From NCBI GenBank assembly GCA_019359235.1, contig JAHHHT010000036.1, positions 1 to 24,244 of the forward strand: a stretch of DNA of 24,244 nt. Reading direction: 5' to 3'. How positions within the stretch are numbered: the first letter of the stretch is position 1; the number at the start of each line of letters is the position of its first letter. The stretch comes from Oscillatoria princeps RMCB-10. Lineage in GTDB: Bacteria; Cyanobacteriota; Cyanobacteriia; Cyanobacteriales; Oscillatoriaceae. The position numbers were made by a program, and so were the translations under genes. The notes under the pieces are model-generated. The model ran no database searches. It was not told the origin of the DNA and saw only the letters and a list, made by a program, of their open reading frames with translations. Positions 5,093 through 22,726 of this stretch are shown here, in pieces.

Positions 5093-5131
5093 CTGTTAAA
5101 ATTTGCTTCTCCCCCCAAAAGAGGAAAAATA

Positions 5132-5587
5132 ATGATGACCTCCGAAATTTTGAAAATCAATAGTCCTAAAGTAGTTCATGAAATCATTGACGGTGAAGTC
5201 GTAATTGTCCATCTGTTGAAAGGGCATTATTATAGCCTGGTCAAAACAGGGGCGGATATTTGGAGCGGAATTGAAAGAGGCATTTCTAGGGAGCGGATTC
5301 TGGAAGAGATGGTGAGCCGGTACGATGGCGATCCGGCAGATATTGAAAAGGCGGTAAACAATATGATAGAACAGTTGCAGGAGGAGGAACTGATCGCTGT
5401 CGCACAGACAGAGGAATCGGGAACTGCAGCCGCCGGCGCAATCGAAGCGAAGGCCAATCCAGAAAAGCTTAGCTTTGAGCCACCAAAGTTAGATAAGTAC
5501 ACGGATATGGAAGATTTGCTGCTGTTAGATCCCATCCATGAAGTTGATGAAACAGGCTGGCCCAATGTCAAGCCGGCGGGTGTGTGA
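5132..5587 (+). CDS. PqqD-family peptide chaperone / RiPP recognition element (RRE), with a roughly 60-aa acidic C-terminal extension.
   Basis: PKVVHEIIDGEVVIVHLLKGHYYSLVKTGADIWSGIERGISRERILEEMVSRYDGDPADIEKAVNNMIEQLQEEELI matches the PqqD / lasso B1 pattern (xxDGExVLLxxxxGxYYxLNxTGAxIWxLLxGxxxxxEIxxxLxxxYxxDxxxxxxDVxxFLxxLxxxGLI). The start was moved to the ATGATG at 5132, which has an AAGAGGA ribosome-binding site. The track start at 5057 lies inside the repeat array. Confidence 0.75.
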   Translation: MMTSEILKINSPKVVHEIIDGEVVIVHLLKGHYYSLVKTGADIWSGIERGISRERILEEMVSRYDGDPADIEKAVNNMIEQLQEEELIAVAQTEESGTAAAGAIEAKANPEKLSFEPPKLDKYTDMEDLLLLDPIHEVDETGWPNVKPAGV

Positions 5588-6678
5588 AAAGACTGATGAT
5601 AAACAAATTATTGCAGCCGGATATGGCAGCCAAGAATGCTATAATGGAGCCGCTGGAGTTTTTCGATGCGGTTTATCAAAAGTACGAAAAAGCTGAAGCT
5701 GCTGGCGGGGGGTGTGTTGAGCGTTATTATTGTATAGCCGGTTTTGCAGTTCGGTTGCGTTTTGCCGGAGGGGCGCTGCTACCATATATCACACCGGCTT
5801 TAGCGCACTTGGCGACAGAACCTGTTGGGGAGCCGGTGCTGACTGTGTGTTTGTGGGACAGTGACTCTACGAACACGGCAATGCCGCCGCCGCCTTGGCA
5901 AGCGGATGATTATCGAGATCGCGGGGAAATTCGAGGGTTCATCAACGAGCGAATTCAGACGATTTTCCAAGTAGGAGTGAATGCGCTGTCGCTTTTGGAC
6001 AGAGAGCGGAATTTGGGTATATACTGGGTTAAGACTGCCAAACAGATTCCCTACTATGAAAGTAGCGCTCCTCTGCGGGCAATTTTTCACTTGTGGATGA
6101 GTCAGCGGGGAATCCAACTGATTCATGCCGGTGCGGTGGGACTTCCCAGTGGGGGGGTGTTGCTGGTGGGAAAGGGGGGTTCGGGCAAATCGACCACAGC
6201 TCTAGCTTGTCTGAATTCCGAGCTTTTCTATGCTAGCGATGATTACTGTTTGCTGGCGCACCACCCCACCCCAACGGTTTTCAGTATTTACAGCACCGGC
6301 AAGAAAAATGCGGATGATGTGGGAAGATTGCCGTTTATGGTTTCACATATCAGCAATCCTGACCGGCTCGGTACAGAAAAAGCGGTTTATTTTTTGAGCG
6401 AGAGTTTTCCGGACAAACTTTTGCCAAGTTTTCCGCTCAGGGCAATTTTGATACCGCGCATTAGTGGGGGGAGAGAGACGGCATTGAAACCGGCATCGCC
6501 GGCTGCCGGTCTGGTGGCGCTGGCTCCGAGTACAATATTTCAATTGCCAGGTGCGGGGAAAGAGGCGTTTCAGACAATGGGACAACTTGTCAGGCAGGTT
6601 CCTTGCTATCAGCTGAACTTGGGCACTGACACCGGGCAAATTCCTGAGGTGATTTTAGAATTATTAGCGGATAATTAA
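5584..6678 (+). CDS. HPr kinase/phosphorylase-related kinase (HprK C-terminal-domain-like with a P-loop), of the kind seen as a RiPP or lasso-peptide tailoring kinase.
   Basis: GVLLVGKGGSGKSTTALACLNSELFYASDDYCLL parallels the HprK [30 protein letters not shown] core. The GTG start overlaps the upstream stop (GTGA), which suggests translational coupling with the RRE gene. Confidence 0.7.
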   Translation: MKRLMINKLLQPDMAAKNAIMEPLEFFDAVYQKYEKAEAAGGGCVERYYCIAGFAVRLRFAGGALLPYITPALAHLATEPVGEPVLTVCLWDSDSTNTAMPPPPWQADDYRDRGEIRGFINERIQTIFQVGVNALSLLDRERNLGIYWVKTAKQIPYYESSAPLRAIFHLWMSQRGIQLIHAGAVGLPSGGVLLVGKGGSGKSTTALACLNSELFYASDDYCLLAHHPTPTVFSIYSTGKKNADDVGRLPFMVSHISNPDRLGTEKAVYFLSESFPDKLLPSFPLRAILIPRISGGRETALKPASPAAGLVALAPSTIFQLPGAGKEAFQTMGQLVRQVPCYQLNLGTDTGQIPEVILELLADN

Positions 6679-6681
6679 GCC

Positions 6682-7458
6682 ATGCAATCTGACCAATTCT
6701 TTGTGAGCGTTATTATCCCCGTGTACAATGGAGAAGCTTTTTTGGCAGAAGCTGTTGAGAGTGTGCGGCAGCTTAATTACCATCCTCTAGAAATTCTCAT
6801 TGTAGACGATGGCTCGACAGATGGCACTGCCGTAATTGCCAAAAACTTCCAGGGGGATGTCCGCTATGTGTGGCAATCTAATAGTGGGCCATCTGCTGCC
6901 CGCAATACGGGACTGAAGATGGCAAGGGGGAACATTATCGCTTTTTTGGATGCGGACGATTTGTGGCCAAACAATAAATTAGAAATTCAGCTGGCGTGCT
7001 TGGCTGCAAATCCATCGGTCGAAATTGTCGGGGGGTACATACAGTATATGCGGCGCTCGGAGAGCGCTACAGACACACAATTATTGGTTGAATTTGCCGA
7101 ACCTATTGTTTCTTTTAACTTGGGGGGTGCGATTTTTAGGAGGCCGGTGTTTGACAGAATAGGCTTGTTTGACGAGAAGCTGCGTTACAGTGAGGATGTT
7201 GACTGGTTTATGCGAGCTTGGGAGAAGGGGGTTTCAATGCTTGTGTTGAAGCAGGTGACGCTGTTTTATCGAAGACACCTGGACAGCATGACTTATGGAA
7301 CCAATTTACACGATCTTAATTTCATTAAGATCCTCAAAAAATCTCTGGACCGGCGTCGGCAACAAAGCAATGGCTCAGCCGCGCCACTTCCTGGATTTTC
7401 CTATGTGGATGAACCTACAGGCAAGCCTACTGTAAACCACTTTGAAGAGGGATTATAA
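6682..7458 (+). CDS. Glycosyltransferase family 2 (short GT-A fold), paralog 1.
   Basis: VSVIIPVYNGEAFLAEAVESV..LEILIVDDGSTDGT...AARNTG...FLDADDLWPNNKL is the classic GT2 N-terminal domain with a DxD motif. Confidence 0.85.
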   Translation: MQSDQFFVSVIIPVYNGEAFLAEAVESVRQLNYHPLEILIVDDGSTDGTAVIAKNFQGDVRYVWQSNSGPSAARNTGLKMARGNIIAFLDADDLWPNNKLEIQLACLAANPSVEIVGGYIQYMRRSESATDTQLLVEFAEPIVSFNLGGAIFRRPVFDRIGLFDEKLRYSEDVDWFMRAWEKGVSMLVLKQVTLFYRRHLDSMTYGTNLHDLNFIKILKKSLDRRRQQSNGSAAPLPGFSYVDEPTGKPTVNHFEEGL

Positions 7459-7460
7459 CT

Positions 7461-8150
7461 GTGGAGAGACTGTTAGTGAGTGTTATTGTTCCTGTTTATA
7501 ATGGCGAGCGCTATTTATCGGCGGCGCTGGAAAGTATTTTCGCTCAGGACTATCATCCCTTCGAGGTGATTGTTGTGGATGATGGTTCGGTTGATAGCAC
7601 TGCGGCCATCGCCAAATCCTTCAAATCAGTTCAATATATCTACCAAACTAATCAGGGGATTGCTAATGCTATGAACAGGGGGATCGATGCTGCCGGTGGA
7701 GAATTGATTGCTTTTCTCGATCAAGATGACCTGTGGACACCCAACAAATTGAGGCTTCAGGTTGATTACTTGGTCAATCACCCAGAAATCCAATACGCGA
7801 TCTCCCTGGTGAAGTTTTTTCTGGAACCGGGGTGTTCTGTCCCGCCCGGCTTCAAAACAGAATTATTAGAGAAAGAACAGGTGGGTCGCATCCCCGGCGC
7901 TTTAATGGCCCGCAAATCTTTGTTGGCGCTAATCGGTCAATTTAATGCGGAGTTTACCATTGCATCCGATGCGGACTGGTTCGCCAGAGCTAAAGATAGT
8001 AACATACCTTGGGCTGTGATTCCTGAAGTTTTGCTTCACAAGCGCGTCCACAACACAAATGTTTCATCAAACGCACGATTGAACAACAAGGAGCTGTTGG
8101 CTTTACTGAGAAAATCAATTGCTCGCCAACAAAAATCCACTCAAGAATAG
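7461..8150 (+). CDS. Glycosyltransferase family 2, paralog 2.
   Basis: VSVIVPVYNGERYLSAALESI..FEVIVVDDGSVDSTA...FLDQDDLWTPNKL. Collinear with paralogs 1 and 3. It starts 2 nt after the previous stop. Confidence 0.85.
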   Translation: MERLLVSVIVPVYNGERYLSAALESIFAQDYHPFEVIVVDDGSVDSTAAIAKSFKSVQYIYQTNQGIANAMNRGIDAAGGELIAFLDQDDLWTPNKLRLQVDYLVNHPEIQYAISLVKFFLEPGCSVPPGFKTELLEKEQVGRIPGALMARKSLLALIGQFNAEFTIASDADWFARAKDSNIPWAVIPEVLLHKRVHNTNVSSNARLNNKELLALLRKSIARQQKSTQE

Positions 8151-8167
8151 CAAAAGGAATCCTCAAG

Positions 8168-8866
8168 ATGGGAAATCAGCCCCTAGTGAGCGCTATCGTA
8201 CCTGTGCGCAATTGCGAGCGCTATTTGGCAGAAGCGCTGGACAGTGCGCTGGCGCAGACTTACTTGCCGGTGGAGATATTTGTTGTGGATGACGGTTCAG
8301 CGGATGGGAGTGGGGAGATTGCCAAACGCTATGTGCCGGCTGTGCGGTATATCTTTCAAACCAGTGCCGGCGCTGCAGCAGCCAGAAACCGGGCAATTCC
8401 ACTAGCTAAGGGTGACTTTTTCGCTTTTCTGGATGCTGATGATGTCTGGCTTCCGGATAAACTTGCCCTGCAAATGGCAGCGTTTGATGCCGAACCAGAC
8501 CTTGACATTGTTACCGGCCATGTGCAACAATTTATCAGTCCAGAGTTAGACGCTGAAGGGATGAAAGGAGTTTATTGCCCACCTGAACCCATGCCAGGTT
8601 ATATCCCTACTGCTATACTCGTCAAGCGCGAAGCCTTTTTTCGGATTGGCTTGTTTGATGAAAATTATCCTGCCGAATATCAAATGGAATTTATCAACTG
8701 GTGTGCGCGTGCTGTGGAGCTTGGTTTGCATATAAAGGTGCTTCCCGAGTTAGTCGCGCGGCGGCGCTTGCACCAAACAAACCAGGAGCGCTCTCGCAAC
8801 TCGAGGCTGGAAATTGTGCGCATCCTGAAAGCTTCTCTCGACCGGCGGCGAGGTGAAAATGGGTAA
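8168..8866 (+). CDS. Glycosyltransferase family 2, paralog 3.
   Basis: VSAIVPVRNCERYLAEALDSA..VEIFVVDDGSADGS...AARNRAI..FLDADDVWLPDKL. Confidence 0.85.
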   Translation: MGNQPLVSAIVPVRNCERYLAEALDSALAQTYLPVEIFVVDDGSADGSGEIAKRYVPAVRYIFQTSAGAAAARNRAIPLAKGDFFAFLDADDVWLPDKLALQMAAFDAEPDLDIVTGHVQQFISPELDAEGMKGVYCPPEPMPGYIPTAILVKREAFFRIGLFDENYPAEYQMEFINWCARAVELGLHIKVLPELVARRRLHQTNQERSRNSRLEIVRILKASLDRRRGENG

Positions 8867-8898
8867 AAAATCGGGTTTCTTAAAGAAACCCGGTTTTT
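8865..8898 (+). terminator. Palindromic hairpin AAAAAATCGGGTTTCTT-A-AAGAAACCCGGTTTTT (10-bp stem flanked by an A-run and a T-run). It has a bidirectional terminator-like form and sits inside the operon between GT2 paralog 3 and the ABC gene.
   Basis: The perfect palindrome was read at 8872..8892. A T5 run lies downstream. It belongs to the dispersed GAAACCCGGTTTC family. Confidence 0.55.
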
Positions 8899-8929
8899 AG
8901 CCTCATGTGAAGGAAGTAAAGAACCGACA

Positions 8930-10588
8930 ATGAACTTACCAGCTTGGCGTTACTACAGTCAATTATACAAAGATTATTACCACTTGCTGTTCTGGAGCGT
9001 TGCAGCCTCCCTGGGGCAATCTGCGGTTTTCTTCCCCATTGCTTTGCTGGTACGCCATGTATTTGATGTCGCAATACCCACCGGCAACTTATCGCTTTTG
9101 GCGCTCACAGGAGTGGCGGTTCTTGTCCTGTACGCCGGCAACATGGCGCTGGCGCTCTGGACGAGATACATTATCCTTAAAATTACTAAAATTGCCATCC
9201 AGCGGCTGAGGGTTGAACTATTAAATAAGTTTTATGCTTTTTCGCGCTCCTACTACAGTCAAGCCGATACGAGCCAGTTGCACACGATTGCCGTTCAAGA
9301 TACCCTGCGCCTGGACATGATGAGCAATGCGCTAGTTGCCCAAGTCATCCCGGCACTGCTCATCTGTGCTGTTTTGAGCGCCGTGTTAATCGCAGTGAAT
9401 TGGTTTTTGTTTCTAGTGCTGGCGCTCGTCGCTCCTCTCATTTATCTGTTGAGCAAAAATCTGGGTAAAAAAGTAAAGCATTGGCTAAAAGCCTATCACC
9501 GCACATTTGAAAAATTCAGCAAAGGGATGCTATTTGTCCTGCAAAATATGGAACTCACCCAAATCCAATCGGCGGAGGAATTTGAAAGGGTGAGGCAAGG
9601 TAAATTGCTGAATGATGAGCGATTGACAAGCAGTGCGATGGCTTGGCTCTATACGGCTTACGGTCTGGCGCAAACCTTTACCGTCGCAGCAGCAAGTGTC
9701 CTGCTTTTAATGGCTGGCGGCTGGGCGATATCCGCCGGCTACATGACCTTAGGAGAGATGGTATCCTTTTATGTAGCGGCCAACTTGATGAGAACTTATG
9801 CCAACACAATTTCGCAAGCCATCCCCCAAATTATAGACGGAAATGAATCTCTGAGTGTTTTGTACGAGCTGTTACAGGTGAGCGACACAAGACCTTATGC
9901 CGGCACTGAAAAAATTGGCTTTCAGGGGAAAATCACTCTCAGGAACGTGAGTTTTTCTTACAGCGACAGGAGGATACTGTCAAATGTCACGCTGTCAGTC
10001 AATCCGGGAGAGACTGTAGCGATTGTCGGGCGCAACGGTGCCGGCAAAAGCACGATTCTTTATCTTATCTTAGGCTTTTACCGGCCACAAGAAGGAGAGC
10101 TGTGGGCAGATGACTGTCCCTTCAGCACACTGGACATTGCGCATCTGCGCCGGCAAATAGGAGTCGTCATGCAAAAGCCGGCAATCTTTGCGGGGACAAT
10201 TTGGGAAAATATCACCTATGGTGCGCCAGATGTGAGTTGCGAAAGGGTGATTGAATCTGCTAAAATAGCCACAGCCCATGAATTTATCCACCGGCTCCCA
10301 GAAGGCTACGAAACCTGTGTGGGAGAAGGGGGAATGCTGCTATCCGGTGGACAGCGCCAGCGGATAGCCATCGCCCGCGCTCTTGTGCGCCAACCCAAGC
10401 TCCTCATCCTCGATGAGCCAACCAATCATCTGGACGAAGCTGCTGTGAGCCAGCTGATAAAAAATCTCAAAGGCATGGCGGAAGCCCCCGCTATTCTTAT
10501 AATAAGTCATAATAGGGATATTGTGCGGGAAGCCAAACATGTGTATACTGTAAAAGATGGATGTCTGGTGGAAACCCTTTGGGGATGA
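8930..10588 (+). CDS. ABC transporter, fused permease/ATP-binding exporter. It resembles type I exporters of the kind that export lasso peptides and bacteriocins, and it has no peptidase domain.
   Basis: 552 aa. The N-terminal half is hydrophobic and reads as transmembrane. Walker [13 protein letters not shown] signature LSGGQRQR, Walker B LLILDEPT. Confidence 0.9.
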
Positions 10589-10615
10589 AAAGCAGAGAGG
10601 ATTTATCCCCCTTCC

Positions 10616-10697
10616 GTAGGACACGTCTCGTGTCCAAATCCAGGCGTAGGACAGGCGAGACGCCTGTCCAGACGCAGGACACGTCTCGTGTCCAAAT
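10616..10697. repeat. Three consecutive short hairpins: GGACACG-TCT-CGTGTCC, GGACAGGCG-AGA-CGCCTGTCC, GGACACG-TCT-CGTGTCC.
   Basis: Inverted repeats read at 10619..10635, 10649..10669 and 10677..10693, between the ABC gene and the nucleotidyltransferase gene. The middle hairpin recurs at 20413 and 22861. Confidence 0.7.
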
Positions 10698-10720
10698 TAG
10701 AACAAAAAAAAGGAGGTACA

Positions 10721-11941
10721 ATGCAAGAGTGGCAAATGAATACAAAGGAAAATATGGGCGGCTACAAGCCGACTCACCAGCAAGGATTGCTCTTACGAGC
10801 TGCGCTTTTGCAAGGTGAAAACGCCCTCGCAGCTTGGGAGGAATGGAGAGCGGCTGTTGATATTCAACGTCTCGATGCTGGTTCCTATCGGTTACTGCCT
10901 TTATTGTATCGCAATTTGTCGCTTCATGGGGTAAATGACCCCCTGATGGCAAAATTTAAGGGAGTCTACCGGAACACCTGGTGCAAAAACCAACTCTCAT
11001 TTAAGAAAGTCTCAGCTGTGATGCGGGCTTTTCACGAGGCGGGGATTCAAACCATGCTCCTGAAAGGGGCGGCTTTGTCCTTAAATTATTACCGAGATTA
11101 TGGCCTCCGTCCCATGAGTGATTTTGACCTTATCGTCCCTACTGCAGACGCTTTACCAGCAATGAAGTTGTTGAGGGAATTGGGGTGGGAAACTTCTGTA
11201 GAAAGACCGGAAAGATATATAGATTTAACGCACGCCGCCGGAGGATTTTCTGATGAATACGGAACAAAAATGGATCTCCACTGGCATGTATTACACCAGT
11301 GCCTTCAAGAGAATGCTGACGAGGATTTCTGGAAGGGCGCGATATCTGTTAAAATAGATGATTTGTCAACCCATGTCTTAAACCCGACCGATCAGTTATT
11401 TCACGTCTGCGTGCATGGATGGCATGGGGATGTATTTCCGACAATTCGCTGGGTGGCTGACGCGATGACGGTGATTAACTCATCTCCAGATGCAATTGAT
11501 TGGCACCGGCTAGTCGCACAGGCTGAAAAAAGACAATTGGTTTTGCGGTTAAAAGATACACTGCCGATATTGCGCGACCTTTTGGACGCCCCAGTACCCC
11601 TATCGATTATACAAGATATCGAAAAGCTACCCATTGCAGCAATTGAGCGGCTCGAATATAAGAGTTCACCAGGCAGACTGATACGAGGATTCGGGAGTTT
11701 GCCAATGATATATACTTCTTATGTGAGGCGGAGTATGAATGATGGCAGTTTCAACCTTTTAGGTTTGGCAAGGCATCTGCAATATTACTTGGGGTTGGAA
11801 CACTTATGGCAGCTTCCCTTGGATGTGATTAAGCGGGGTATAAGAAGGATTTGGATTGACCTCTTAGGAGGAAAGTCTGCGCCAATTCCAACAAAACGGG
11901 CATTTCGCCAGGAGCGCGAAGCCAGTAAAACTTCAGTTTAG
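10721..11941 (+). CDS. Nucleotidyltransferase-family protein (NTP_transf_5 / lasso-cluster-associated nucleotidyltransferase-like).
   Basis: MLLKGAALSLNYYRDYGLRPMSDFDLIVP...LGWE is the signature region as I remember it for that family. The start was moved to the ATG at 10721, which has an AAGGAGG ribosome-binding site. The track GTG start at 10688 lies inside a hairpin. Confidence 0.6.
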   Translation: MQEWQMNTKENMGGYKPTHQQGLLLRAALLQGENALAAWEEWRAAVDIQRLDAGSYRLLPLLYRNLSLHGVNDPLMAKFKGVYRNTWCKNQLSFKKVSAVMRAFHEAGIQTMLLKGAALSLNYYRDYGLRPMSDFDLIVPTADALPAMKLLRELGWETSVERPERYIDLTHAAGGFSDEYGTKMDLHWHVLHQCLQENADEDFWKGAISVKIDDLSTHVLNPTDQLFHVCVHGWHGDVFPTIRWVADAMTVINSSPDAIDWHRLVAQAEKRQLVLRLKDTLPILRDLLDAPVPLSIIQDIEKLPIAAIERLEYKSSPGRLIRGFGSLPMIYTSYVRRSMNDGSFNLLGLARHLQYYLGLEHLWQLPLDVIKRGIRRIWIDLLGGKSAPIPTKRAFRQEREASKTSV

Positions 11942-12006
11942 TTGCAGTGGCGCATTCGCCGCACAATCGCAATTATGGAGTTTCTCAGTTGGATGAAATA
12001 TGGCCC

Positions 12007-12040
12007 AAAAACCCGGTTTCTTTAAGAAACCGGGTTTCTC
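12007..12040. repeat. Palindromic hairpin AAACCCGGTTTCTT-TA-AAGAAACCGGGTTT of the GAAACCCGGTTTC family, 65 nt after the nucleotidyltransferase stop.
   Basis: Inverted repeat read directly. An A-run lies upstream, and there is only a weak U-tract downstream on the plus strand. Confidence 0.6.
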
Positions 12041-12218
12041 ACTACCTCACTAATATGAGGAATGCTATAGGGCATTTTAATGAATAAATCATAGTCAAAT
12101 TAAATGCCTAACAGCCGGCAGCTAGGGGGGAGCTGTCTGCCGGCTTGGCAAACGCTACCTTTATGTGTTACAATTATTTACAGTAGACGCCATTGCTTAC
12201 ACAGACCCAGCCATTCTT

Positions 12219-13277
12219 ATGTCTGACACCTTAACAAAACTGGCATACCAGACTTTTCAACAGGGCAAAAGTTACTTCGGTCTGGCTCACAAAGCCTTAA
12301 GTTCCAACTTGCGGAACTTATTGTATCCTGCTAGCACTCCTCAGACTAAACCTATCGGCTCGGCTCTGATAGAACTCCTTCAACAAAGGAGCGCTCAGCT
12401 CCTGGAAACAGACTGGCTGGATGCTGAGCGGGGCGTGTATCCCACCAGCTTGCTCTTTGACAATCCTTGGGAAGACTTCTTTCGCTACTATCCCGTGGTT
12501 TGCCTGGATCTGCCGCCAATCTGGGAGCGGATTCAGCAGAAGAAATCTCAGGAATTTTCGCCAGAGATTGAGACGGAAGGCTATCCCAACTACTATTTGC
12601 AAAACTTCCACCACCAGACAAACGGCTACTTGAGCGACATGTCAGCCAATCTCTATGACTTGCAGGTGGAGCTTCTTTTTGGTGGCACCGCCGATCCCAT
12701 GCGGCGGCGAATCCTGGCTCCTCTAAAGCAAGGGCTGAATGCTTTTAGCTCAACTCCTCCCCACCAAATCCGGGTTCTAGATATAGCTTGCGGAACCGGG
12801 CGCAGCCTGAAATTAATCCGAGCTGCTCTCCCTAAAGCATCCCTATTTGGCACTGACTTGTCACCGGCTTACTTGCGCAAGGCAAATCAGCTGCTGTCGC
12901 AAAATCCAGGGGAATTGCCGCAACTCCTGCAGGCTAATGCAGAGGAACTGCCCTATAAAGATAGCTACTTCCACGCAGTCACGAGCGTTTTTCTCTTCCA
13001 CGAACTTCCGCCGGCGGCGCGTCAGAAGGTGATCCAGCAGTGCTTCCGAGTCACTCAGCCAGGGGGAGTCTTTATTATCTGTGACGCTATTCAGGTGAGC
13101 GATTCTCCGGAATTCATGCCAATGATGGAAAACTTCCCAGATATGTTCCACGAACCCTACTACAAGCATTATATCACAGATGACCTGACAGAACGTTTAG
13201 AAAAAGCCGGCTTCACGAATATTTCTACTGAAGTCCACTTGTTTAGCAAGTATTGGGTCGCTCACAAGCCGGCCTAA
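12219..13277 (+). CDS. Class I SAM-dependent methyltransferase (Methyltransf_11/25-like).
   Basis: VLDIACGTGRSLKLI (SAM motif I), with an acidic motif II region and YKDSYFHAVTSVFLFHELP downstream. The start was taken at the ATG at 12219. The track lists an alternative GTG at 12165. Confidence 0.8.
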   Translation: MSDTLTKLAYQTFQQGKSYFGLAHKALSSNLRNLLYPASTPQTKPIGSALIELLQQRSAQLLETDWLDAERGVYPTSLLFDNPWEDFFRYYPVVCLDLPPIWERIQQKKSQEFSPEIETEGYPNYYLQNFHHQTNGYLSDMSANLYDLQVELLFGGTADPMRRRILAPLKQGLNAFSSTPPHQIRVLDIACGTGRSLKLIRAALPKASLFGTDLSPAYLRKANQLLSQNPGELPQLLQANAEELPYKDSYFHAVTSVFLFHELPPAARQKVIQQCFRVTQPGGVFIICDAIQVSDSPEFMPMMENFPDMFHEPYYKHYITDDLTERLEKAGFTNISTEVHLFSKYWVAHKPA

Positions 13278-17949: not shown

Positions 17950-18125
17950 GTTACGGGATAGGCGAAGCATGAGCGAATGTCCATCTTTTCTCTGATTGCA
18001 GATATCCTCGCGCTCATGCTTCGCCCCTACAGGAGATTCACTGTAGGGGCGAAGCATTTGCGCGGGAATCTTTACTGCCGCGCCCGGTATTTACATTCGC
18101 AAATGCTTCGCCCTCTTCGCTTCCC
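17950..18125. repeat. Cluster of nested hairpins built on GGCGAAGCATGAGCG / CGCTCATGCTTCGCC, CCCTACAG..CTGTAGGG and GCGAAGCATTTGCG / CGCAAATGCTTCGCC.
   Basis: The inverted repeats were read directly. The cluster overlaps the 3' end of the minus-strand ORF 18091..18711. Confidence 0.7.
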
Positions 18126-18711
18126 AACGAAAAAACGTACCCCTGAAAGGTGGGGGAGGGAGAGAAATTTTTATTGCTGTTGGTTGGGTGTGATTTGTTG
18201 CAGCTGGAAAACTTTCCGCCACTCGCGCAAAGGCATTGGGTGGGACGAGCAGTTCGACTGGGCGGCTGTTTTTTAGGGGTAACGACAGCCGCAGGGGGGT
18301 GTCTGAGTCCAACTGGGCCATGACTTGCAGGAAGTCGTACTCTCCAACGTTGGCCGGTAGGGATGAGTCAGCCCAGACATCGGGGGCTGTCCACACAACG
18401 CCTGTGCCGGTGGCAATCCGCAAGGGTGCGGTGCCGGCTAATTCGCCTATGCCGGGAAATCCCACTAGGCGCAGGCGCACGGAGTCTAGTTGACTGGATT
18501 TGAGTCGCTTATAGAGTACGGTTTGCCACGCTTTGTCTGTGGCATCGCGCAGGGTTTGTAGCGAGCGATACATCACTTGTGTGGGGGATTCTGGGTAGGT
18601 GTGGACAGAAGCGAAAGCCGGTTGTGAATTGCCGGCTGTCAGGGAGAGGCACAGGGCGAGCAACGCAATAAGCCGGTGCCACTGTTTGAGACGGCTGATA
18701 TTTTTCATCAT
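18091..18711 (-). CDS. Hypothetical secreted protein (N-terminal signal peptide).
   Basis: 206-aa ORF with the signal-like hydrophobic core LIALLALCLSLTAGNSQPAFA. I recognise no catalytic motifs. The C-terminal about 20 codons are encoded within the hairpin repeat cluster. Confidence 0.5.
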   Translation of the reverse strand: MMKNISRLKQWHRLIALLALCLSLTAGNSQPAFASVHTYPESPTQVMYRSLQTLRDATDKAWQTVLYKRLKSSQLDSVRLRLVGFPGIGELAGTAPLRIATGTGVVWTAPDVWADSSLPANVGEYDFLQVMAQLDSDTPLRLSLPLKNSRPVELLVPPNAFARVAESFPAATNHTQPTAIKISLPPPPFRGTFFRWEAKRAKHLRM

Positions 18712-18721
18712 TTTTAATAAT

Positions 18722-18860
18722 CCGGAGAGTGCTACCTCTCGCTCCTCGTTTTCAGGCAGAATAATCGGGAGGGTGCTGCCTCTCGCTCCTCGTTTTCAGG
18801 CAATCGGGAGGCAGAGCCGACCGAGTCTCGTTCCCAGGCTCTGCCTGGGAACGAGAAAAT
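18722..18860. repeat. Direct repeat of about 30 bp (TGC(T)ACCTCTCGCTCCTCGTTTTCAGGCA x2), plus a hairpin CGTTCCCAGGCTCTGCCTGGGAACG that recurs at 22806..22836.
   Basis: Read directly. Lies between the divergent hypothetical gene and crtI. Confidence 0.7.
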
Positions 18861-18882
18861 TGGTATAACAGGGGGAGTGAGG

Positions 18883-20358
18883 ATGAACATCGCTGTGATC
18901 GGGAGTGGATTTGGCGGGTTGTCTGCTGCGATTCGGCTAGCCGCACGGGGATATAATGTGACTGTGATTGAGAAGCGGGACAAGCCAGGGGGGCGGGCTT
19001 ATGTGTGGCAGCAGGACGGCTTCACGTTTGATGCCGGTCCCACTATTATTACTGCGCCGCAGTTCATCCGCGAGCTGTTCCAGCTGAGTGGGAAAAAGAC
19101 GGAAGACTATGTGAAGCTGGTTCCGCTTGACCCGTTCTACTGCGTGCGCTTCTGCGACGGGTCTGTGTTCCGCTACACCGGCGACACGGAAAGCATTCTC
19201 CGGCAGATTCGCGAGTTTAACCCAGAGGATGAGGAGGGCTACCGCAGGTTTTACAAGGCAGCGGAGACTGTCTTTAAAAAAGGGCTGCCGCTGATGGAGC
19301 AACCGTTCACCCGCTTTGGGGACATGCTGAAAGTTGCCCCAGATATGGTTCAATTACAATCTTACAAATCTGTGGCGGGATTTGTCAATCAGTATATCAA
19401 AGATGAGCGGCTGCGGCAAGTTTTCAGCTTCCACCCGCTTTTGATTGGGGGCAATCCTTTTCAAAGCACCTCGATTTACGCGATGATCCACAAGCTGGAG
19501 CAGGAATTTGGCATTTGGTTCGCGATCGGGGGGACGGGAGCCTTGGTGAAGGGGCTGGTTCAACTTTTTCAAGACATCGGGGGGAAACTGCTGCTGGGTG
19601 CGGAAGTGGCGGAAATTGGGATGGATGAGAAAACGGGGCGGGCGACCGGCGTGGCGCTCAAAACAGGTGAATTTGTGCCGGCGGATGCGGTGGTGAGCAA
19701 TGCGGATGTGGCGCACACCTATCTGAATTTAGTGCCGGCAAGGTTTCGGCGCAAGTACACCGACCGAAAGGTGCGGGGGATGCGATACTCAATGTCGCTG
19801 TTTGTGGTGTATTTCGGCACCGATTGCCGGTACGAGAGCATGGCTCACCACGAGATTATCATGGGCCCGCGATACCGGGAGCTGATGCGCGATATTTTTC
19901 AGCGGAAGCGTTTAGCAGAAGACTTCTCGCTATATTTGCACCGCCCGACAGCAACCGATCCGTCGCTAGCACCTCCGGGGTGTGACTGCTGGTACGCGCT
20001 GTCGCCGGTGCCCAATTTGGACAGCCAGACCGATTGGAAAGCGATGGCGAAGCCCTACCGGGATGCTATCATCCAGTTTTTGGAACAGCGCTATCTGCCA
20101 GATTTGTCAAAACACATTGTTACCGAACGTTACATTGACCCTTTGCACTTCCGGGATACGCTGAATAGCTACAAGGGCAGCGCTTTTTCTGTGGAGCCAA
20201 TTCTCACGCAATCGGCTTGGTTCCGCCCCCACAACCAAAGTGAAGATGTGCCCAATCTCTATTTTGTGGGGGCGGGAACCCATCCGGGCGCGGGGCTGCC
20301 TGGGGTGATGAGTTCAGGTAAAATTGTGGCGGAGATGATTGGGCGGGTTTCAGTGTAA
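18883..20358 (+). CDS. crtI: Phytoene desaturase family protein, bacterial CrtI type (FAD-dependent). It could alternatively be a CrtD-like carotenoid 3',4'-desaturase.
   Basis: N-terminal Rossmann motif IAVIGSGFGGLSAAIRLAARGYNVTVIEKRDKPGGRAYV. The blocks DGFTFDAGPTIITAP, RQVFSFHPLLIGGNPFQSTSIYAMIH, EDFSLYLHRPTATDPSLAPPGC and GSAFSVEPILTQSAWFRPHN...LYFVGAGTHPGAGLPGV are characteristic of CrtI. Start taken at the ATG at 18883, with a GGGGGAG ribosome-binding site. Confidence 0.8.
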   Translation: MNIAVIGSGFGGLSAAIRLAARGYNVTVIEKRDKPGGRAYVWQQDGFTFDAGPTIITAPQFIRELFQLSGKKTEDYVKLVPLDPFYCVRFCDGSVFRYTGDTESILRQIREFNPEDEEGYRRFYKAAETVFKKGLPLMEQPFTRFGDMLKVAPDMVQLQSYKSVAGFVNQYIKDERLRQVFSFHPLLIGGNPFQSTSIYAMIHKLEQEFGIWFAIGGTGALVKGLVQLFQDIGGKLLLGAEVAEIGMDEKTGRATGVALKTGEFVPADAVVSNADVAHTYLNLVPARFRRKYTDRKVRGMRYSMSLFVVYFGTDCRYESMAHHEIIMGPRYRELMRDIFQRKRLAEDFSLYLHRPTATDPSLAPPGCDCWYALSPVPNLDSQTDWKAMAKPYRDAIIQFLEQRYLPDLSKHIVTERYIDPLHFRDTLNSYKGSAFSVEPILTQSAWFRPHNQSEDVPNLYFVGAGTHPGAGLPGVMSSGKIVAEMIGRVSV

Positions 20359-20536: not shown

Positions 20537-22726
20537 ATGCTGAACATTCCTCAAATACTGGCTGATGAGCTTTCTCTGAAGCCTTTTCAGGTTCAAAATG
20601 CGCTCGAACTTTTCGCCGAGGGGGCGACGATTCCTTTTGTCGCTCGCTACCGCAAAGAGCGCACCGGCTCTCTGGACGAAATCCAGCTTCGCAACCTCTC
20701 TGAGCGACACACTTATCTCACGGAGCTTGAGGAGCGCAAGGCGGCGATTCTGGAGGCAATCGCCTCGCAAGGGAAGCTCACCGATGAGCTGAAATCCAAA
20801 ATCGAATCCTGTCTGCAAAAAACGGAACTCGAAGACCTTTATCTTCCTTATAAACCGAAACGGCGCACGCGGGCAACTGCCGCTCGCGAAAAAGGCTTGT
20901 CACCGCTGGCTGAGTTTCTCAAGTCGCTGAATAGTCCCAGCGCCAAACCGGCATCTCTGGAAGAGGAAGCCGCCAAATATCTCTCGGAGGAGAAAGGTGT
21001 CTTGACGGTAGGGGACGCTCTGAAAGGCGCTTCTGACATTTTAGCGGAAGAAGTGTCGGAAAAGGCAGAGTTGCGGGCTTACCTGCGAGACTACTTGATG
21101 AAATCGGGGGGGTTCGTTTCGCGGATTAAAGATGAGTATCCGGAGGGCAGCACTAAGTTCGAGATGTACCGCAACTTTCAGGTCAGGGTGAGAGATGTTG
21201 CGCCGCACAATATGCTGGCGCTGCTGCGGGGCGAGGCTGAGGGAGTGCTGAGCGTGGAGCTTGACTTTGACGAGTCGGCTGTGCTATCTTATTTGCAGGC
21301 GCAGGAGATTAAGACGAAGGTGCCGGCGGTGCGGGAGTTTTACCGGCAGATGCTGGAGGACGCCTTCAGCCGGCTGATGAAAACCTCCCTGACGACTGAA
21401 GTGCGGTCCGACAGGAAAGCCTCTGCGGATGTCGAGTCAATTAAGACCTTTGAGGAGAATCTGCGGGAGTTGCTGCTGTCGGCTCCCGCCGGCATGAAAC
21501 CAACTTTGGGAGTCGATCCGGGATTTCGCACCGGCTGCAAGGTTGCTGTCCTCGACGAAACGGGTAAATTTTTGGAATACCAGACGGTGTTCCCCCACCA
21601 AAGTGCGGCGCAGCGGGCTGAGGCTGCTCGCACGGTTAAGAATCTGGTTGAAAAGTACAAGATTGAGCTGATTGCGATTGGTAACGGTACGGCTTCCCGC
21701 GAGACGGATGAGTTTATTGCTGAGGTGCTGGCGGCGCTGGAGCGCAAGCCGGTTAAAGTGATAGTGAATGAGTCGGGCGCGTCGATTTATTCCGCTTCGG
21801 ATGTGGCGCGAGACGAGTTTCCCGAGCTGGACCTGACAGTGCGGGGTGCGATCAGCATCGGACGCCGGTTGCAAGACCCACTGGCTGAGCTGGTTAAGAT
21901 TGACCCGAAGTCGATTGGTGTGGGACAGTACCAGCACGATGTTGACCAAAAACTGCTCAAGAAAAAGCTAGACGAGACGGTTGAAAGCTGCGTGAACTAT
22001 GTGGGCGTGGATCTGAACACCGCCTCGAAGGAACTTTTGACCTTTGTGTCTGGGATTACGCCAACCGTTGCCAAAAATATTGTAGCCTATCGCAACGAGC
22101 GCGGCGCTTTCAAAAATCGCCGGGAGCTGCTCAAGGTGTCCAAGCTTGGCCCGAAAACATTTGAGCAGGCGGCTGGCTTTTTGAGGATTCGTGGCGGAGA
22201 CAATCCGCTGGACAATACGGCGGTGCACCCGGAGAGTTATTTTGTGGTGCAGGCGATTGCTAAGGATGTGGATGTGGCGCTGGATAAGATAGCGCAGGCG
22301 GCTGAGCGGCTGAAGTCGGTTAATCTGAAAAAATATGTTAGCGATACTGTCGGGTTGCCTACGCTTCGCGATATAATGAGCGAACTGGAAAAGCCGGGAA
22401 GGGACCCGCGCGAGCAGTTCAAATATGCGACCTTCAAAGAAGGCGTTAAGGAAATCAAAGACTTAACGGTTGGCATGGAACTGGAGGGAATTGTCACGAA
22501 TGTGGCGAATTTTGGCGCGTTCGTGGATATCGGCGTGCACCAGGACGGTTTGGTGCATATTTCGCAGCTGGCTGACCGCTTTGTTGACGACCCCAAGAAG
22601 GTGGTGAAAGTGGGGCAGGTTGTGAAGGTGCGGGTGCTGGAAGTGAATGAGAAATTGAAGCGGATCGGCTTGTCGATGCGGTCGCCAGATAAGCCAAATA
22701 GCGGGCGTGCCGGCAGGAGCCGGTGA
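20537..22726 (+). CDS. tex: Transcription accessory protein Tex (YqgF/RNase H-like, HhH and C-terminal S1 domains).
   Basis: ILADELSLKPFQVQNALELFAEGATIPFVARYRKERTGSLDE is the canonical Tex N-terminus. A C-terminal S1 domain follows (GMELEGIVTNVANFGAFVDIG...GLVHISQL). The start was moved to the ATG at 20537. Confidence 0.9.
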   Translation: MLNIPQILADELSLKPFQVQNALELFAEGATIPFVARYRKERTGSLDEIQLRNLSERHTYLTELEERKAAILEAIASQGKLTDELKSKIESCLQKTELEDLYLPYKPKRRTRATAAREKGLSPLAEFLKSLNSPSAKPASLEEEAAKYLSEEKGVLTVGDALKGASDILAEEVSEKAELRAYLRDYLMKSGGFVSRIKDEYPEGSTKFEMYRNFQVRVRDVAPHNMLALLRGEAEGVLSVELDFDESAVLSYLQAQEIKTKVPAVREFYRQMLEDAFSRLMKTSLTTEVRSDRKASADVESIKTFEENLRELLLSAPAGMKPTLGVDPGFRTGCKVAVLDETGKFLEYQTVFPHQSAAQRAEAARTVKNLVEKYKIELIAIGNGTASRETDEFIAEVLAALERKPVKVIVNESGASIYSASDVARDEFPELDLTVRGAISIGRRLQDPLAELVKIDPKSIGVGQYQHDVDQKLLKKKLDETVESCVNYVGVDLNTASKELLTFVSGITPTVAKNIVAYRNERGAFKNRRELLKVSKLGPKTFEQAAGFLRIRGGDNPLDNTAVHPESYFVVQAIAKDVDVALDKIAQAAERLKSVNLKKYVSDTVGLPTLRDIMSELEKPGRDPREQFKYATFKEGVKEIKDLTVGMELEGIVTNVANFGAFVDIGVHQDGLVHISQLADRFVDDPKKVVKVGQVVKVRVLEVNEKLKRIGLSMRSPDKPNSGRAGRSR

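What the first reader, a model, noticed from the sequence alone, without database searches (positions are those of the whole stretch)
18883..20358. Bacterial-type CrtI phytoene desaturase in a cyanobacterial genome
The genome context (psaK, apcF, glnA with an NtcA box, STRR repeats) is cyanobacterial. Cyanobacteria normally desaturate phytoene with plant-type CrtP/CrtQ, and Gloeobacter is the textbook exception that uses CrtI. This ORF carries the full set of CrtI-diagnostic blocks, not only the generic FAD fold. Possible roles are a CrtD-like 3',4'-desaturase for myxoxanthophyll-type carotenoids, a pro-lycopene isomerase-like enzyme, or a true four-step CrtI acquired laterally. It stands alone here, with no crtB or crtY nearby.
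Basis: partly seen in the sequence, partly recalled or inferred. Interest (0 to 1): 0.55.

Follow-up and report, generated by a model that had tools for sequence, protein, structure and literature searches.

The report
Bacterial-type CrtI desaturase in Oscillatoria
This filamentous cyanobacterium carries an intact, conserved copy of the one-enzyme bacterial route from phytoene to lycopene (CrtI), which reviews say occurs among cyanobacteria only in Gloeobacter, and the same gene is present in many other mat- and soil-dwelling cyanobacteria.

Summary
The ORF at 18883-20358 (+) encodes a 491-aa protein that is a true CrtI-type phytoene desaturase.

- It scores 630 bits on NCBIfam crtI_fam (cut-off 238).
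- It is 52.5% identical over its full length to crystallised Pantoea CrtI (4DGK).
- The FAD fold, the C-terminal signature and the substrate-pocket residues are kept.
- It fails the equivalog cut-offs for cyanobacterial CrtD, CrtH and CrtO by a wide margin.
- It is only 32% identical to Nostoc CrtQa.

The window is a chromosomal stretch of Oscillatoria princeps RMCB-10 (an 8.63-Mb contig). It also carries phycobilisome, PsaK and DUF3122 genes.

The gene is not a recent import:
- Its GC3 matches that of its neighbours.
- The DUF3122-crtI-tex order is shared with Lyngbya aestuarii.
- CrtI has diverged about as much as Tex (75% versus 76% identity).
- dN/dS is 0.07-0.09.

Close homologues (69-98% identity) occur in at least 15 other cyanobacterial species genomes. 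They form a clade with 91-96% bootstrap support, nested among soil Ktedonobacteria, Acidobacteria and Gemmatimonadota.

Two clade members also carry the plant-type crtP-crtB operon. I could not check this for O. princeps itself.

Best reading: a second, one-enzyme route to all-trans-lycopene. It is a new member of a known kind, under-recognised rather than new, and of moderate interest.

The parts
18883..20358 (+). crtI coding sequence (491 aa plus stop): bacterial-type phytoene desaturase
   Evidence: ORF. TIGR02734: 629.8 bits against a cut-off of 238. 4DGK: 563 bits, 52.5% identity. 100% identical to 'phytoene desaturase [Oscillatoria princeps RMCB-10]'. dN/dS 0.07-0.09 against close relatives.
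18871..18882 (+). Purine-rich Shine-Dalgarno-like stretch GGGGGAGTGAGG directly before ATG 18883
   Evidence: Read from the sequence. The same GGGGGAGTGAGGATGAAC is kept in the 98%-identical relative L001, although the rest of the intergenic region differs.
18886..18993 (+). N-terminal FAD-binding Rossmann beta-alpha-beta (aa 2-37; G7-x-G9-x-x-G12, E30)
   Evidence: Pfam NAD_binding_8, DAO and Pyr_redox hits on residues 2-60. Glycines at G7, G9 and G12 are invariant in 83 of 85 aligned sequences (one has C and one a gap at the G7 column), and E/D is kept at position 30.
19306..19332 (+). Substrate-tunnel segment F142-K150 (FTRFGDMLK). It contains D147, equivalent to Pantoea D149 (proposed catalytic base), and K150, equivalent to R152.
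   Evidence: Column counts on the 85-sequence alignment. D147 is found in all 25 sequences of the cyanobacterial set (21 named plus 4 unnamed) and in 54 of 58 other CrtI. Position 150 is K or R in 79 of 83. The roles of these residues are as proposed in PMC3382138.
19846..19851 (+). H322-H323, the conserved histidine pair lining the end of the substrate tunnel
   Evidence: Invariant in all 83 CrtI sequences aligned. In Pantoea CrtI, mutating this pair changes the number of double bonds introduced (PMC3382138).
20254..20316 (+). C-terminal bacterial-type phytoene dehydrogenase signature NLYFVGAGTHPGAGLPGVMSS (aa 458-478)
   Evidence: Regular-expression match. The pattern was recalled from PROSITE PS00982 and not checked against the database. 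The block aligns with Pantoea NLYLVGAGTHPGAGIPGVIGS.
18712..18882 (.). Divergent intergenic region between the DUF3122 gene and crtI. It holds an exact 23-bp direct repeat (18736-18758 and 18780-18802) and a perfect 13-bp-stem palindrome (18827-18855). The promoter was not identified.
   Evidence: No sigma-70-like site was found here by the consensus scan. The region is not conserved in relatives.
18091..18711 (-). Conserved syntenic neighbour (context): DUF3122 protein, divergently transcribed
   Evidence: Pfam PF11320, 131 bits. It holds the same position next to crtI in L001, L002, L012 (Lyngbya aestuarii BL J) and L015.
20537..22726 (+). Conserved syntenic neighbour (context): Tex-like transcription accessory protein, downstream and co-directional
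   Evidence: Pfam Tex_N, Tex_YqgF, HHH and S1 domains. The start is taken from the JGI gene call. Tex lies downstream of crtI also in L012 and L015, at 76% identity.

Best explanation
The ORF encodes a functional, membrane-peripheral, FAD-dependent CrtI-type phytoene desaturase. By analogy with Pantoea CrtI, it would take 15-cis-phytoene made by the cell's CrtB. It would introduce four double bonds stepwise and isomerise the central bond, giving all-trans-lycopene. Reduced FAD would be reoxidised by O2 or a quinone.

In this cyanobacterium it most likely works as a second route alongside the plant-type CrtP/CrtQ/(Z-ISO)/CrtH route, not in place of it. That second route needs one enzyme, no light-driven or enzymatic cis-trans isomerisation, and is not obligatorily tied to plastoquinone.

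The gene entered an ancestor of a group of crown cyanobacteria from, or shares a source with, soil bacteria (Ktedonobacteria, Acidobacteria, Gemmatimonadota). It has since been kept under purifying selection.

What is shown: family identity, intact motifs, selection, synteny, phylogenetic position, and co-occurrence with crtP-crtB in two related genomes.

What is inferred: the substrate and product, the electron acceptor, the co-existence with crtP in O. princeps itself, and any conditional role (dark, anoxia, an over-reduced plastoquinone pool, or resistance to CrtP inhibitors).
For: Family identity:
- TIGR02734: 629.8 bits against a cut-off of 238.
- All equivalog models for CrtD, CrtH and CrtO fall far below their cut-offs.
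- 52.5% identity over 480 aligned residues to crystallised Pantoea CrtI, and 56.8% to Thiodictyon CrtI, which is encoded next to crtB.

Intact machinery:
- GxGxxG and E30.
- P53/T54, F142, D147, K150, L187, H322/H323, Y351, H353 and Y371 match the Pantoea pocket and candidate catalytic residues (PMC3382138).
- The C-terminal signature is present.

Tree: the CrtI clade has 100% bootstrap support against CrtQa and CrtD.

Selection: dN/dS is 0.093 against L001 and 0.070 against L002.

Residency:
- GC3 is 0.65, against 0.59-0.68 for the four nearest genes.
- The DUF3122-crtI-tex order is shared with Lyngbya aestuarii BL J and with J06592_8.
- CrtI identity is 74-75% and Tex identity 76% in those same pairs.

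Distribution: 15 other named cyanobacterial species genomes plus 4 unnamed ones form a clade with the window at 91-96% support. That clade lies inside a 100%-supported group with Ktedonobacteria, Pyrinomonadaceae and Gemmatimonadota.

Co-occurrence with the plant-type pathway. The crtP-crtB operon and this CrtI are in the same assembly for:
- Allocoleopsis sp., GCA_036703385.1 (L083 and L004).
- Oculatellaceae bins.114, GCA_033764315.1 (L087 and L088).

Mechanism of the reference enzyme: FAD is the sole cofactor, O2 is the acceptor and is replaceable by quinones, and the enzyme has isomerase activity (PMC3382138).
Against: - No enzymatic, pigment or expression data exist for this protein.
- crtP, crtQ and crtH were not located in O. 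princeps itself. Two protein searches did not list a hit from its 8.63-Mb contig among their best 120, so 'second route' rather than 'sole route' is inferred from relatives and from general knowledge.
- No crtB, crtE or cyclase gene is linked to it, unlike most bacterial crtI genes.
- Pantoea R148, one of three candidate acid/base residues, is Gly here. That column is variable across bona fide CrtI (S, T, G, W, R), so this argues little.
- Sequence cannot tell a 3-step (neurosporene), 4-step (lycopene) or 5-step product apart.
- The proposed conditional role rests only on the habitats suggested by organism names.
Confidence: 0.72

Rival explanations
1. The protein is a CrtI by descent but has taken a different job in a host that already has CrtP/CrtQ/CrtH. 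It could desaturate zeta-carotene or neurosporene and isomerise poly-cis intermediates (a CrtQa- or CrtH-like role). Or it could add 3,4-double bonds to acyclic ends for myxol- or oscillol-type carotenoids (a CrtD-like role).
For: - It has no linkage to crtB, and it co-occurs with a complete crtP-crtB operon in relatives, so a strictly redundant function needs explaining.
- Pantoea CrtI itself isomerises prolycopene and makes bisdehydrolycopene in vivo (PMC3382138).
- The protein scores 329 bits on the bifunctional CrtID model.
- Oscillatoria species are known producers of oscillol and myxol glycosides (own knowledge).
Against: - All specialised models fall far below their cut-offs: CrtID 329 against 640, proteobacterial CrtD 228 against 580 and 223 against 500, cyanobacterial CrtD 72 against 550, CrtH 123 against 587.
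- It is 32% identical to CrtQa and 28% to the solved gamma-carotene desaturase 4REP, against 52-57% to true phytoene desaturases.
- Pocket residues match CrtI where CrtD and CrtQa differ, at F142, M148, L187, H353 and Y371.
Confidence: 0.17
2. CrtI is the only phytoene desaturase of this organism, having replaced CrtP/CrtQ/CrtH as in Gloeobacter.
For: No crtP from the 8.63-Mb contig appeared among the best 120 hits of two CrtP searches.
Against: - Those lists show only the 120 best of more than 5,000 CrtP clusters that are 82-88% alike. Absence from them is expected and is not informative.
- Two members of the same CrtI clade carry crtP-crtB.
- The plant-type pathway is reported in all cyanobacteria except Gloeobacter (10.1101/2021.02.18.431691).
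Confidence: 0.05
3. The gene is an ordinary cyanobacterial CrtD, CrtH or CrtO paralogue, or the plasmid-type CrtQa, mislabelled as CrtI.
For: All of these belong to the same superfamily and share the Amino_oxidase fold.
Against: - The equivalog cut-offs are missed by factors of 4 to 9.
- There is 100% bootstrap separation from CrtQa and CrtD.
- Identity to CrtQa is 32%.
Confidence: 0.02
4. The gene is a decaying relic, or comes from contaminating non-cyanobacterial DNA.
For: Its closest non-cyanobacterial relatives are soil heterotrophs at 72-76% identity. One relative (L018) has an in-frame stop.
Against: - The ORF is intact and dN/dS is 0.07-0.09.
- It is embedded between psaK, trpF and DUF3122 on one side and tex on the other, on an 8.63-Mb contig.
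- Synteny is conserved in other Oscillatoriaceae.
- GC3 matches the host.
Confidence: 0.02

Closest known systems
Pantoea ananatis CrtI (P21685; PDB 4DGK), the reference four-step phytoene desaturase/isomerase
   Same: - Full-length colinear alignment at 52.5% identity and the same length class.
- Same FAD motif and C-terminal signature.
- Same pocket residues: P-T, F144, D149, L189, H322/H323, Y351, H353, Y371.
- By inference, the same chemistry: FAD, O2 or quinone as acceptor, all-trans product (PMC3382138).
   Different: - The host is an oxygenic phototroph that normally uses CrtP/CrtQ.
- The gene is not in a crtEXYIBZ-type cluster.
- R148 is replaced by Gly, and R152 by Lys, which is the majority state in the family.
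- Activity is untested.
Gloeobacter violaceus CrtI (Q7NM99), called the sole cyanobacterial CrtI in reviews
   Same: It is a bacterial-type CrtI encoded in a cyanobacterial chromosome.
   Different: - Gloeobacter lacks crtP, crtQ and crtH, so CrtI is its only route (PMC11857680; 10.1101/2021.02.18.431691). Relatives of this gene co-occur with crtP-crtB.
- No Gloeobacter protein is among the 120 best hits, all of which are at least 72% identical.
- The literature places Gloeobacter CrtI next to Deinococcus (supplement of PMC7713294) or next to Chloroflexi (PMC2889829).
- Thermus CrtI, used here as a stand-in for Deinococcota, is 50% identical and falls outside all the other CrtI sequences in my tree.
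- I could not obtain the Gloeobacter sequence, so a direct comparison was not made.
CrtQa of Nostoc/Anabaena sp. PCC 7120 (plasmid alpha, WP_010999808), a CrtI-like zeta-carotene desaturase
   Same: It is a CrtI-superfamily desaturase present in a crown cyanobacterium alongside the plant-type enzymes, and it forms all-trans products (PMC2889829).
   Different: - Only 32% identical.
- It branches outside the CrtI clade at 100% support.
- It is plasmid-borne and has no clear orthologues elsewhere (PMC2889829), whereas this gene is chromosomal and widespread.
- It differs at pocket positions F142, D147, M148, L187, H353 and Y371.
Cyanobacterial CrtH (cis-carotene isomerase), CrtD (C-3',4' desaturase) and CrtO (ketolase)
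   Same: Same flavoprotein superfamily and overall fold, and all act on carotenoids.
   Different: Scores against their equivalog models are 123 against a cut-off of 587, 72 against 550 and 110 against 1000. The protein is therefore not a member of any of them.
CrtI of Ktedonobacteria (for example Dictyobacter aurantiacus), Pyrinomonadaceae and Gemmatimonadota
   Same: These are the nearest non-cyanobacterial relatives, at 67-76% identity. Together with the cyanobacterial sequences they form a clade with 100% support. In Ktedonobacteria the gene also has no adjacent crtB.
   Different: The hosts are non-phototrophs or anoxygenic phototrophs in which CrtI is presumably the only desaturase. The cyanobacterial sequences form their own sub-clade at 91-96% support.

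Membership tests
CrtI, bacterial-type phytoene desaturase (NCBIfam TIGR02734; EC 1.3.99.31 and relatives) | Full-length match to the family profile above the curated cut-off | tested here: met
   629.8 bits against a cut-off of 238.1, covering residues 4-486 and profile positions 2-488 of 504.
CrtI, bacterial-type phytoene desaturase | Groups with functionally characterised phytoene desaturases rather than with CrtD, CrtQa or other paralogues in a phylogeny | tested here: met
   Neighbour-joining tree on 482 columns with 100 bootstraps. The clade with Pantoea and Thiodictyon CrtI has 100% support, and CrtQa and a CrtD (4REP) fall outside it. CrtN, CrtH and CrtO references were not in the tree; they were judged from HMM scores only.
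CrtI, bacterial-type phytoene desaturase | N-terminal dinucleotide (FAD) binding beta-alpha-beta with GxGxxG and an acidic residue at the end of the second strand | tested here: met
   G7, G9, G12 and E30 are present. Pfam NAD_binding_8 scores 62.7 bits.
CrtI, bacterial-type phytoene desaturase | C-terminal 'bacterial-type phytoene dehydrogenase' signature | tested here: met
   NLYFVGAGTHPGAGLPGVMSS at aa 458-478 matches the pattern. The pattern was recalled from PROSITE PS00982 and not checked against the database.
CrtI, bacterial-type phytoene desaturase | Substrate-tunnel and candidate catalytic residues of the Pantoea structure (P54, T55, F144, D149, R152, L189, H322, H323, Y351, H353, Y371) | tested here: met
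   All are identical except R152, which is Lys here, the majority state in the family. R148 is Gly, but that column is variable in bona fide CrtI. The residue list is from PMC3382138.
CrtI, bacterial-type phytoene desaturase | Catalyses the desaturation of phytoene to neurosporene or lycopene | not testable with these tools
   This needs complementation of a phytoene-accumulating E. coli or a liposome assay.
CrtI, bacterial-type phytoene desaturase | Genomic linkage to crtB, crtE or crtY (typical of the family but not defining) | tested here: not met
   There is no carotenoid gene in the 24-kb window, and none next to crtI in any member of the main cyanobacterial clade. crtB is adjacent only in the separate Pseudanabaenaceae-type lineage.
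Cyanobacterial CrtD (TIGR02733), C-3',4' desaturase | Score above the equivalog cut-off | tested here: not met
   71.9 bits against 549.7, and the best-scoring stretch covers only the N-terminal Rossmann part (residues 2-56).
CrtH / CRTISO carotenoid isomerase (TIGR02730) | Score above the equivalog cut-off | tested here: not met
   123 bits against 586.9.
CrtO beta-carotene ketolase (NF045689) | Score above the equivalog cut-off | tested here: not met
   110.5 bits against 1000.
CrtQa (Nostoc PCC 7120 CrtI-like zeta-carotene desaturase) | Orthology to the PCC 7120 plasmid-alpha protein | tested here: not met
   32% identity, and it lies outside the CrtI clade at 100% bootstrap.
CrtP/PDS and CrtQ/ZDS plant-type desaturases | Full-length similarity to the plant-type family | tested here: not met
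   TIGR02732 scores 25.5 bits against a cut-off of 622, on residues 3-47 only. Genuine CrtP proteins retrieved form a separate family.

The most novel reading that the evidence does not exclude
A CrtI clade specific to cyanobacteria is kept, alongside the plant-type CrtP/CrtQ/CrtH pathway, in many benthic, mat-forming and soil-crust cyanobacteria. These include Oscillatoria, Lyngbya, Coleofasciculus, Allocoleopsis, Microseira, Trichocoleus, Oculatellaceae, Scytonematopsis and Crocosphaera.

In this reading the clade provides a conditional route to all-trans-lycopene that does not depend on light or on plastoquinone. It would be used when the poly-cis route is limited: in darkness, when there is no photoisomerisation; under anoxia or with an over-reduced plastoquinone pool; or in the presence of natural CrtP inhibitors.

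That would overturn the review statement that Gloeobacter is the only cyanobacterium with CrtI. It also predicts intrinsic tolerance of these organisms to norflurazon-type bleaching herbicides.
Probability: 0.3. Interest if true: 0.6.

Novelty: new member of a known kind. Interest (0 to 1): 0.42.

Why it matters
Reviews as recent as 2025 state that bacterial-type CrtI occurs among cyanobacteria only in Gloeobacter (PMC11857680; supplement of PMC7713294). That exception is used in arguments about how the poly-cis plant-type pathway arose (10.1101/2021.02.18.431691).

This gene shows that a true CrtI is a stable chromosomal resident of a crown-group filamentous cyanobacterium. It also shows that close homologues are spread over several families, together with crtP-crtB in at least two genomes.

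If the gene is active, three things follow:
- These organisms run two routes from phytoene to lycopene that are not homologous in mechanism. This poses a concrete physiological question: when is each route used?
- It gives a natural test of the cost and benefit of the four-enzyme poly-cis route.
- It predicts herbicide tolerance in these organisms.

The finding is also a clear case of gene sharing between phyla among soil and mat bacteria. It is not a new enzyme type, and public annotation already labels it 'phytoene desaturase'.

Tried and rejected
1. **Looking for crtP of O. princeps itself.** I searched with S. elongatus Pds and then with Allocoleopsis CrtP. I looked for a hit whose longest contig is 8,634,711 bp and found none among the best 120 of either search. 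CrtP proteins are 82-88% alike across orders, so these lists are saturated by nearer relatives. The result is uninformative, not negative.

2. **The metagenome scan.** I considered it for the same purpose and did not run it, because it keeps only the 80 best matches and would be saturated in the same way.

3. **Obtaining Gloeobacter CrtI (Q7NM99) for the tree.**
   - It is not among the 120 best hits.
   - It is not among the 80 loci kept by the genome scan. That scan seeded on six exact 8-residue peptides of the query, so it is biased.
   - Only its accession, not its sequence, turned up when I searched the supplement of PMC7713294. Searches were rejected for syntax.
   - I used Thermus CrtI as a weak stand-in for the Deinococcus-like lineage.

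4. **Conserved regulatory motif upstream of crtI.** The intergenic regions of the window, L001, L002, L012 and L015 are not alignable except L012 with L015. The sigma-70 scan found nothing in 18712-18882.

5. **RNA elements.** There were no Rfam matches and no tRNAs in the window.

6. **Conserved functional partner gene.** Clustering the neighbours of 81 loci found none for the cyanobacterial clade. DUF3122 and tex are shared only within Oscillatoriaceae, and Uma2-family genes are scattered.

7. **Structure prediction.** Not run. With 52.5% identity to a crystal structure it would add nothing.

8. **Recent horizontal transfer.** Rejected on composition, synteny and divergence.

One search failed because I gave wrong coordinates for one ORF.
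Full report
**The observation.** The + strand carries one long ORF from 18877 (GTG) or 18883 (ATG) to the stop at 20356-20358. ATG 18883 is the probable start for three reasons. It follows the purine-rich stretch GGGGGAGTGAGG. That stretch and the first codons are kept in the 98%-identical relative L001, although the rest of the intergenic DNA differs. JGI's own gene call gives the same 491-aa product.

**What the protein is.**
- Against NCBIfam it scores 629.8 bits on TIGR02734 (crtI_fam, cut-off 238.1) over its whole length.
- Every specialised paralogue model is far below its cut-off:
  - bifunctional CrtID: 329 against 640
  - proteobacterial CrtD: 228 against 580 and 223 against 500
  - CrtH/carotenoid isomerase: 123 against 587
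  - CrtO: 110 against 1000
  - cyanobacterial CrtD: 72 against 550
  - zeta-carotene desaturase: 25 against 622
- Pfam finds Amino_oxidase plus the N-terminal dinucleotide-binding domain.
- Among solved structures the best match is Pantoea ananatis CrtI (4DGK) at 563 bits, colinear over residues 4-485. The next is the gamma-carotene desaturase 4REP at 211 bits.
- On an 85-sequence alignment the protein is 52.5% identical to Pantoea CrtI and 56.8% to Thiodictyon CrtI, whose gene sits beside crtB and puf genes. It is 32.6% identical to Nostoc PCC 7120 CrtQa and 28.1% to 4REP.

**Functional residues.** Schaub et al. (PMC3382138) list the Pantoea residues for the substrate tunnel and the candidate acid/base groups.
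- The following are present here: G7/G9/G12, E30, R38, P53-T54, F142, D147 (Pantoea D149, the proposed base), M148, K150 (R152; Lys is the majority state), L187, H322/H323, Y351, H353 and Y371.
- Most of them are invariant or nearly so in the other 82 CrtI sequences aligned.
- Pantoea R148 is Gly here, but that column varies (S, T, G, W, R) in the family.
- At F142, M148, L187, H353 and Y371 the protein agrees with CrtI where CrtQa and CrtD differ.
- The C-terminal block NLYFVGAGTHPGAGLPGVMSS fits the bacterial phytoene dehydrogenase signature. I recalled that pattern from PROSITE.

**Where it comes from.**
- The protein is 100% identical to 'phytoene desaturase [Oscillatoria princeps RMCB-10]'.
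- The window maps to positions about 1.94-1.96 Mb of an 8,634,711-bp JGI contig.
- The window also encodes an allophycocyanin-family protein, GlnA, PsaK, TrpF, a DUF3122 protein and Tex. The host is plainly a cyanobacterium and the gene is chromosomal.
- No carotenoid gene is nearby.

**Age of the gene in this lineage.**
- The GC3 of crtI (0.652) lies within the range of the four nearest genes (0.585-0.681). A cluster at 5-13 kb is visibly lower, at 0.46-0.56.
- The order DUF3122 (divergent) - crtI - tex recurs in Lyngbya aestuarii BL J (L012) and in cyanobacterium J06592_8 (L015). DUF3122-crtI recurs in L001 and L002.
- Between O. princeps and L. aestuarii, CrtI is 74.6% identical and the adjacent Tex 76.5%. 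The gene was therefore already at this locus in their common ancestor and has evolved at a housekeeping-like rate.
- dN/dS is 0.093 against L001 and 0.070 against L002. Synonymous sites are saturated against more distant relatives.
- The gene is under purifying selection and is not a relic.

**Distribution and phylogeny.**
- A scan of one genome per species found 274 relatives. The best 80 include 20 named cyanobacterial genomes:
  - an Oscillatoria MAG at 98% identity
  - Allocoleopsis at 78-79%
  - Elainellaceae at 77%
  - Coleofasciculaceae and Coleofasciculus at 76-77%
  - FACHB-502 at 76%
  - Lyngbya aestuarii, Microseira and UBA11372 at 75%
  - J06592_8 and a Leptolyngbyaceae MAG at 74%
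  - Crocosphaera at 69%
  - four Pseudanabaenaceae/Synechococcales MAGs at 61-62%
- The protein search adds Trichocoleus spp., Lyngbya sp. CCY1209, Scytonematopsis contorta and an Oculatellaceae MAG.
- Equally close (67-76%) are Ktedonobacteria, Pyrinomonadaceae (Acidobacteriota) and Gemmatimonadota.
- In neighbour-joining trees (482 columns, Kimura distances, 100 bootstraps) the results are:
  - All these sequences group with Pantoea and Thiodictyon CrtI at 100% support, apart from CrtQa and CrtD.
  - Cyanobacteria, Ktedonobacteria, Pyrinomonadaceae and Gemmatimonadota form a 100%-supported group.
  - Sixteen cyanobacterial sequences (the window plus 15 others), together with four from unnamed MAGs, form a sub-clade at 91% support, or 96% in the second run. 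At least two of the four unnamed MAGs have cyanobacterial neighbour genes.
- The Pseudanabaenaceae-type sequences form a second cyanobacterial lineage with crtB divergently adjacent. One Leptolyngbyaceae sequence sits with the Acidobacteria and Ktedonobacteria.
- The pattern indicates exchange between phyla among soil and mat bacteria, followed by retention and possibly further spread within cyanobacteria. The direction of transfer is not resolved.

**Relation to the plant-type pathway.**
- I could not retrieve crtP from O. princeps itself. CrtP is so conserved that the lists of 120 best hits never reached it.
- Two members of the CrtI clade do have both systems in one assembly:
  - Allocoleopsis sp., GCA_036703385.1: crtP-crtB on DATNPA010000076 and CrtI on DATNPA010000813 (L004).
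  - Oculatellaceae bins.114, GCA_033764315.1: CrtI on JANRJA010000247 and crtP-crtB on JANRJA010000211.
- The plant-type pathway is reported in all cyanobacteria except Gloeobacter (10.1101/2021.02.18.431691). Coexistence is therefore the likely state in O. princeps too.

**How it most likely works.** By homology with Pantoea CrtI, the protein is a membrane-peripheral flavoprotein. It performs all four desaturations and the central 15-cis to trans isomerisation. FAD is the only redox cofactor, and O2 or quinones reoxidise it (PMC3382138).

In a cell that also has CrtP/CrtQ/CrtH, this gives a route to all-trans-lycopene with three properties:
- It needs no CrtH, Z-ISO or light-driven isomerisation.
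- It is not obligatorily coupled to plastoquinone.
- From established knowledge of CrtI, it is insensitive to norflurazon-type CrtP inhibitors.

The carriers named above are mostly benthic, mat-forming or soil forms. That is a suggestion drawn from their names, not a test. The product chain length (3, 4 or 5 steps) cannot be read from the sequence.

**Comparison with what is known.**
- Reviews state that CrtI among cyanobacteria is found only in Gloeobacter (PMC11857680; supplement of PMC7713294). They also state that the CrtI-like CrtQa is unique to Anabaena PCC 7120 (PMC2889829).
- In the library I searched, I found only passing mentions of crtI genes in crown cyanobacteria. One is a gene table for Chroococcidiopsis CCMEE 029, listing two crtI genes beside crtP, crtQ and crtH (PMC7345886). 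The other is an automatic annotation of a Phormidium MAG (PMC8002359).
- Public databases already label this protein 'phytoene desaturase'.
- The enzyme type is therefore known. What is under-recognised is its stable and fairly wide presence in crown-group cyanobacteria together with the plant-type pathway.
- Its relationship to Gloeobacter CrtI could not be tested. No Gloeobacter protein is among the 120 best hits, all at least 72% identical. Thermus CrtI, a stand-in for the Deinococcus-like lineage to which one paper assigns Gloeobacter CrtI, is 50% identical and branches outside all the other CrtI sequences in my tree.

**Verdict.** The gene is a true CrtI, not CrtD, CrtH, CrtO or CrtQa. 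Its lateral origin is ancient and it is a settled resident of the genome. It is a new member of a known kind and of moderate interest. The interest lies in the contradiction with a textbook statement and in the testable question of why two routes to lycopene coexist.

Noticed in passing
window 5057-13277: A co-directional gene cluster with clearly lower GC (0.46-0.52, GC3 0.46-0.56) than the rest of the window. It encodes a PqqD-like protein, an unknown 364-aa protein, three family-2 glycosyltransferases, an ABC transporter, an NTP_transf_5 nucleotidyltransferase and a methyltransferase. It may be a horizontally acquired island for a modified peptide or a polysaccharide.
   Followed up: no
window 18712-18882: The intergenic region upstream of crtI holds an exact 23-bp direct repeat (18736-18758 and 18780-18802) and a perfect 13-bp-stem palindrome (18827-18855). 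The 98%-identical relative L001 has an unrelated intergenic sequence with a different palindrome. This spot seems to collect small repeat elements.
   Followed up: partly
L046 8447-11518; L049 8700-11530: A second cyanobacterial CrtI lineage, 61-62% identical to the window protein, occurs in Pseudanabaenaceae/Synechococcales MAGs. Here a phytoene synthase gene (crtB) lies divergently adjacent to crtI. I did not examine whether these genomes also have crtP.
   Followed up: partly
L018 4279-5736: The crtI homologue of a Coleofasciculus MAG has an in-frame stop and splits into two ORFs. L051 (a Herpetosiphonaceae MAG) also has one in-frame stop. Either could be a pseudogene or an assembly error.
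   Followed up: no
L023 10001-11464: The CrtI of a Leptolyngbyaceae MAG does not fall in the main cyanobacterial clade. It sits next to the Pyrinomonadaceae and Ktedonobacteria sequences, with weak support. This could be a separate transfer or a binning error.
   Followed up: no
L083 3001-5414; L084 144-2543; L086 3001-5390; L088 3001-5491: In all four cyanobacterial loci fetched for CrtP, crtP is followed directly by crtB (SQS_PSY). This is the usual plant-type operon, in contrast with the stand-alone crtI.
   Followed up: partly
window 18937-19716 (- strand): Two antisense ORFs of 138 and 120 aa lie inside crtI. They are most likely artefacts of a long GC-rich coding region and were not examined.
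   Followed up: no
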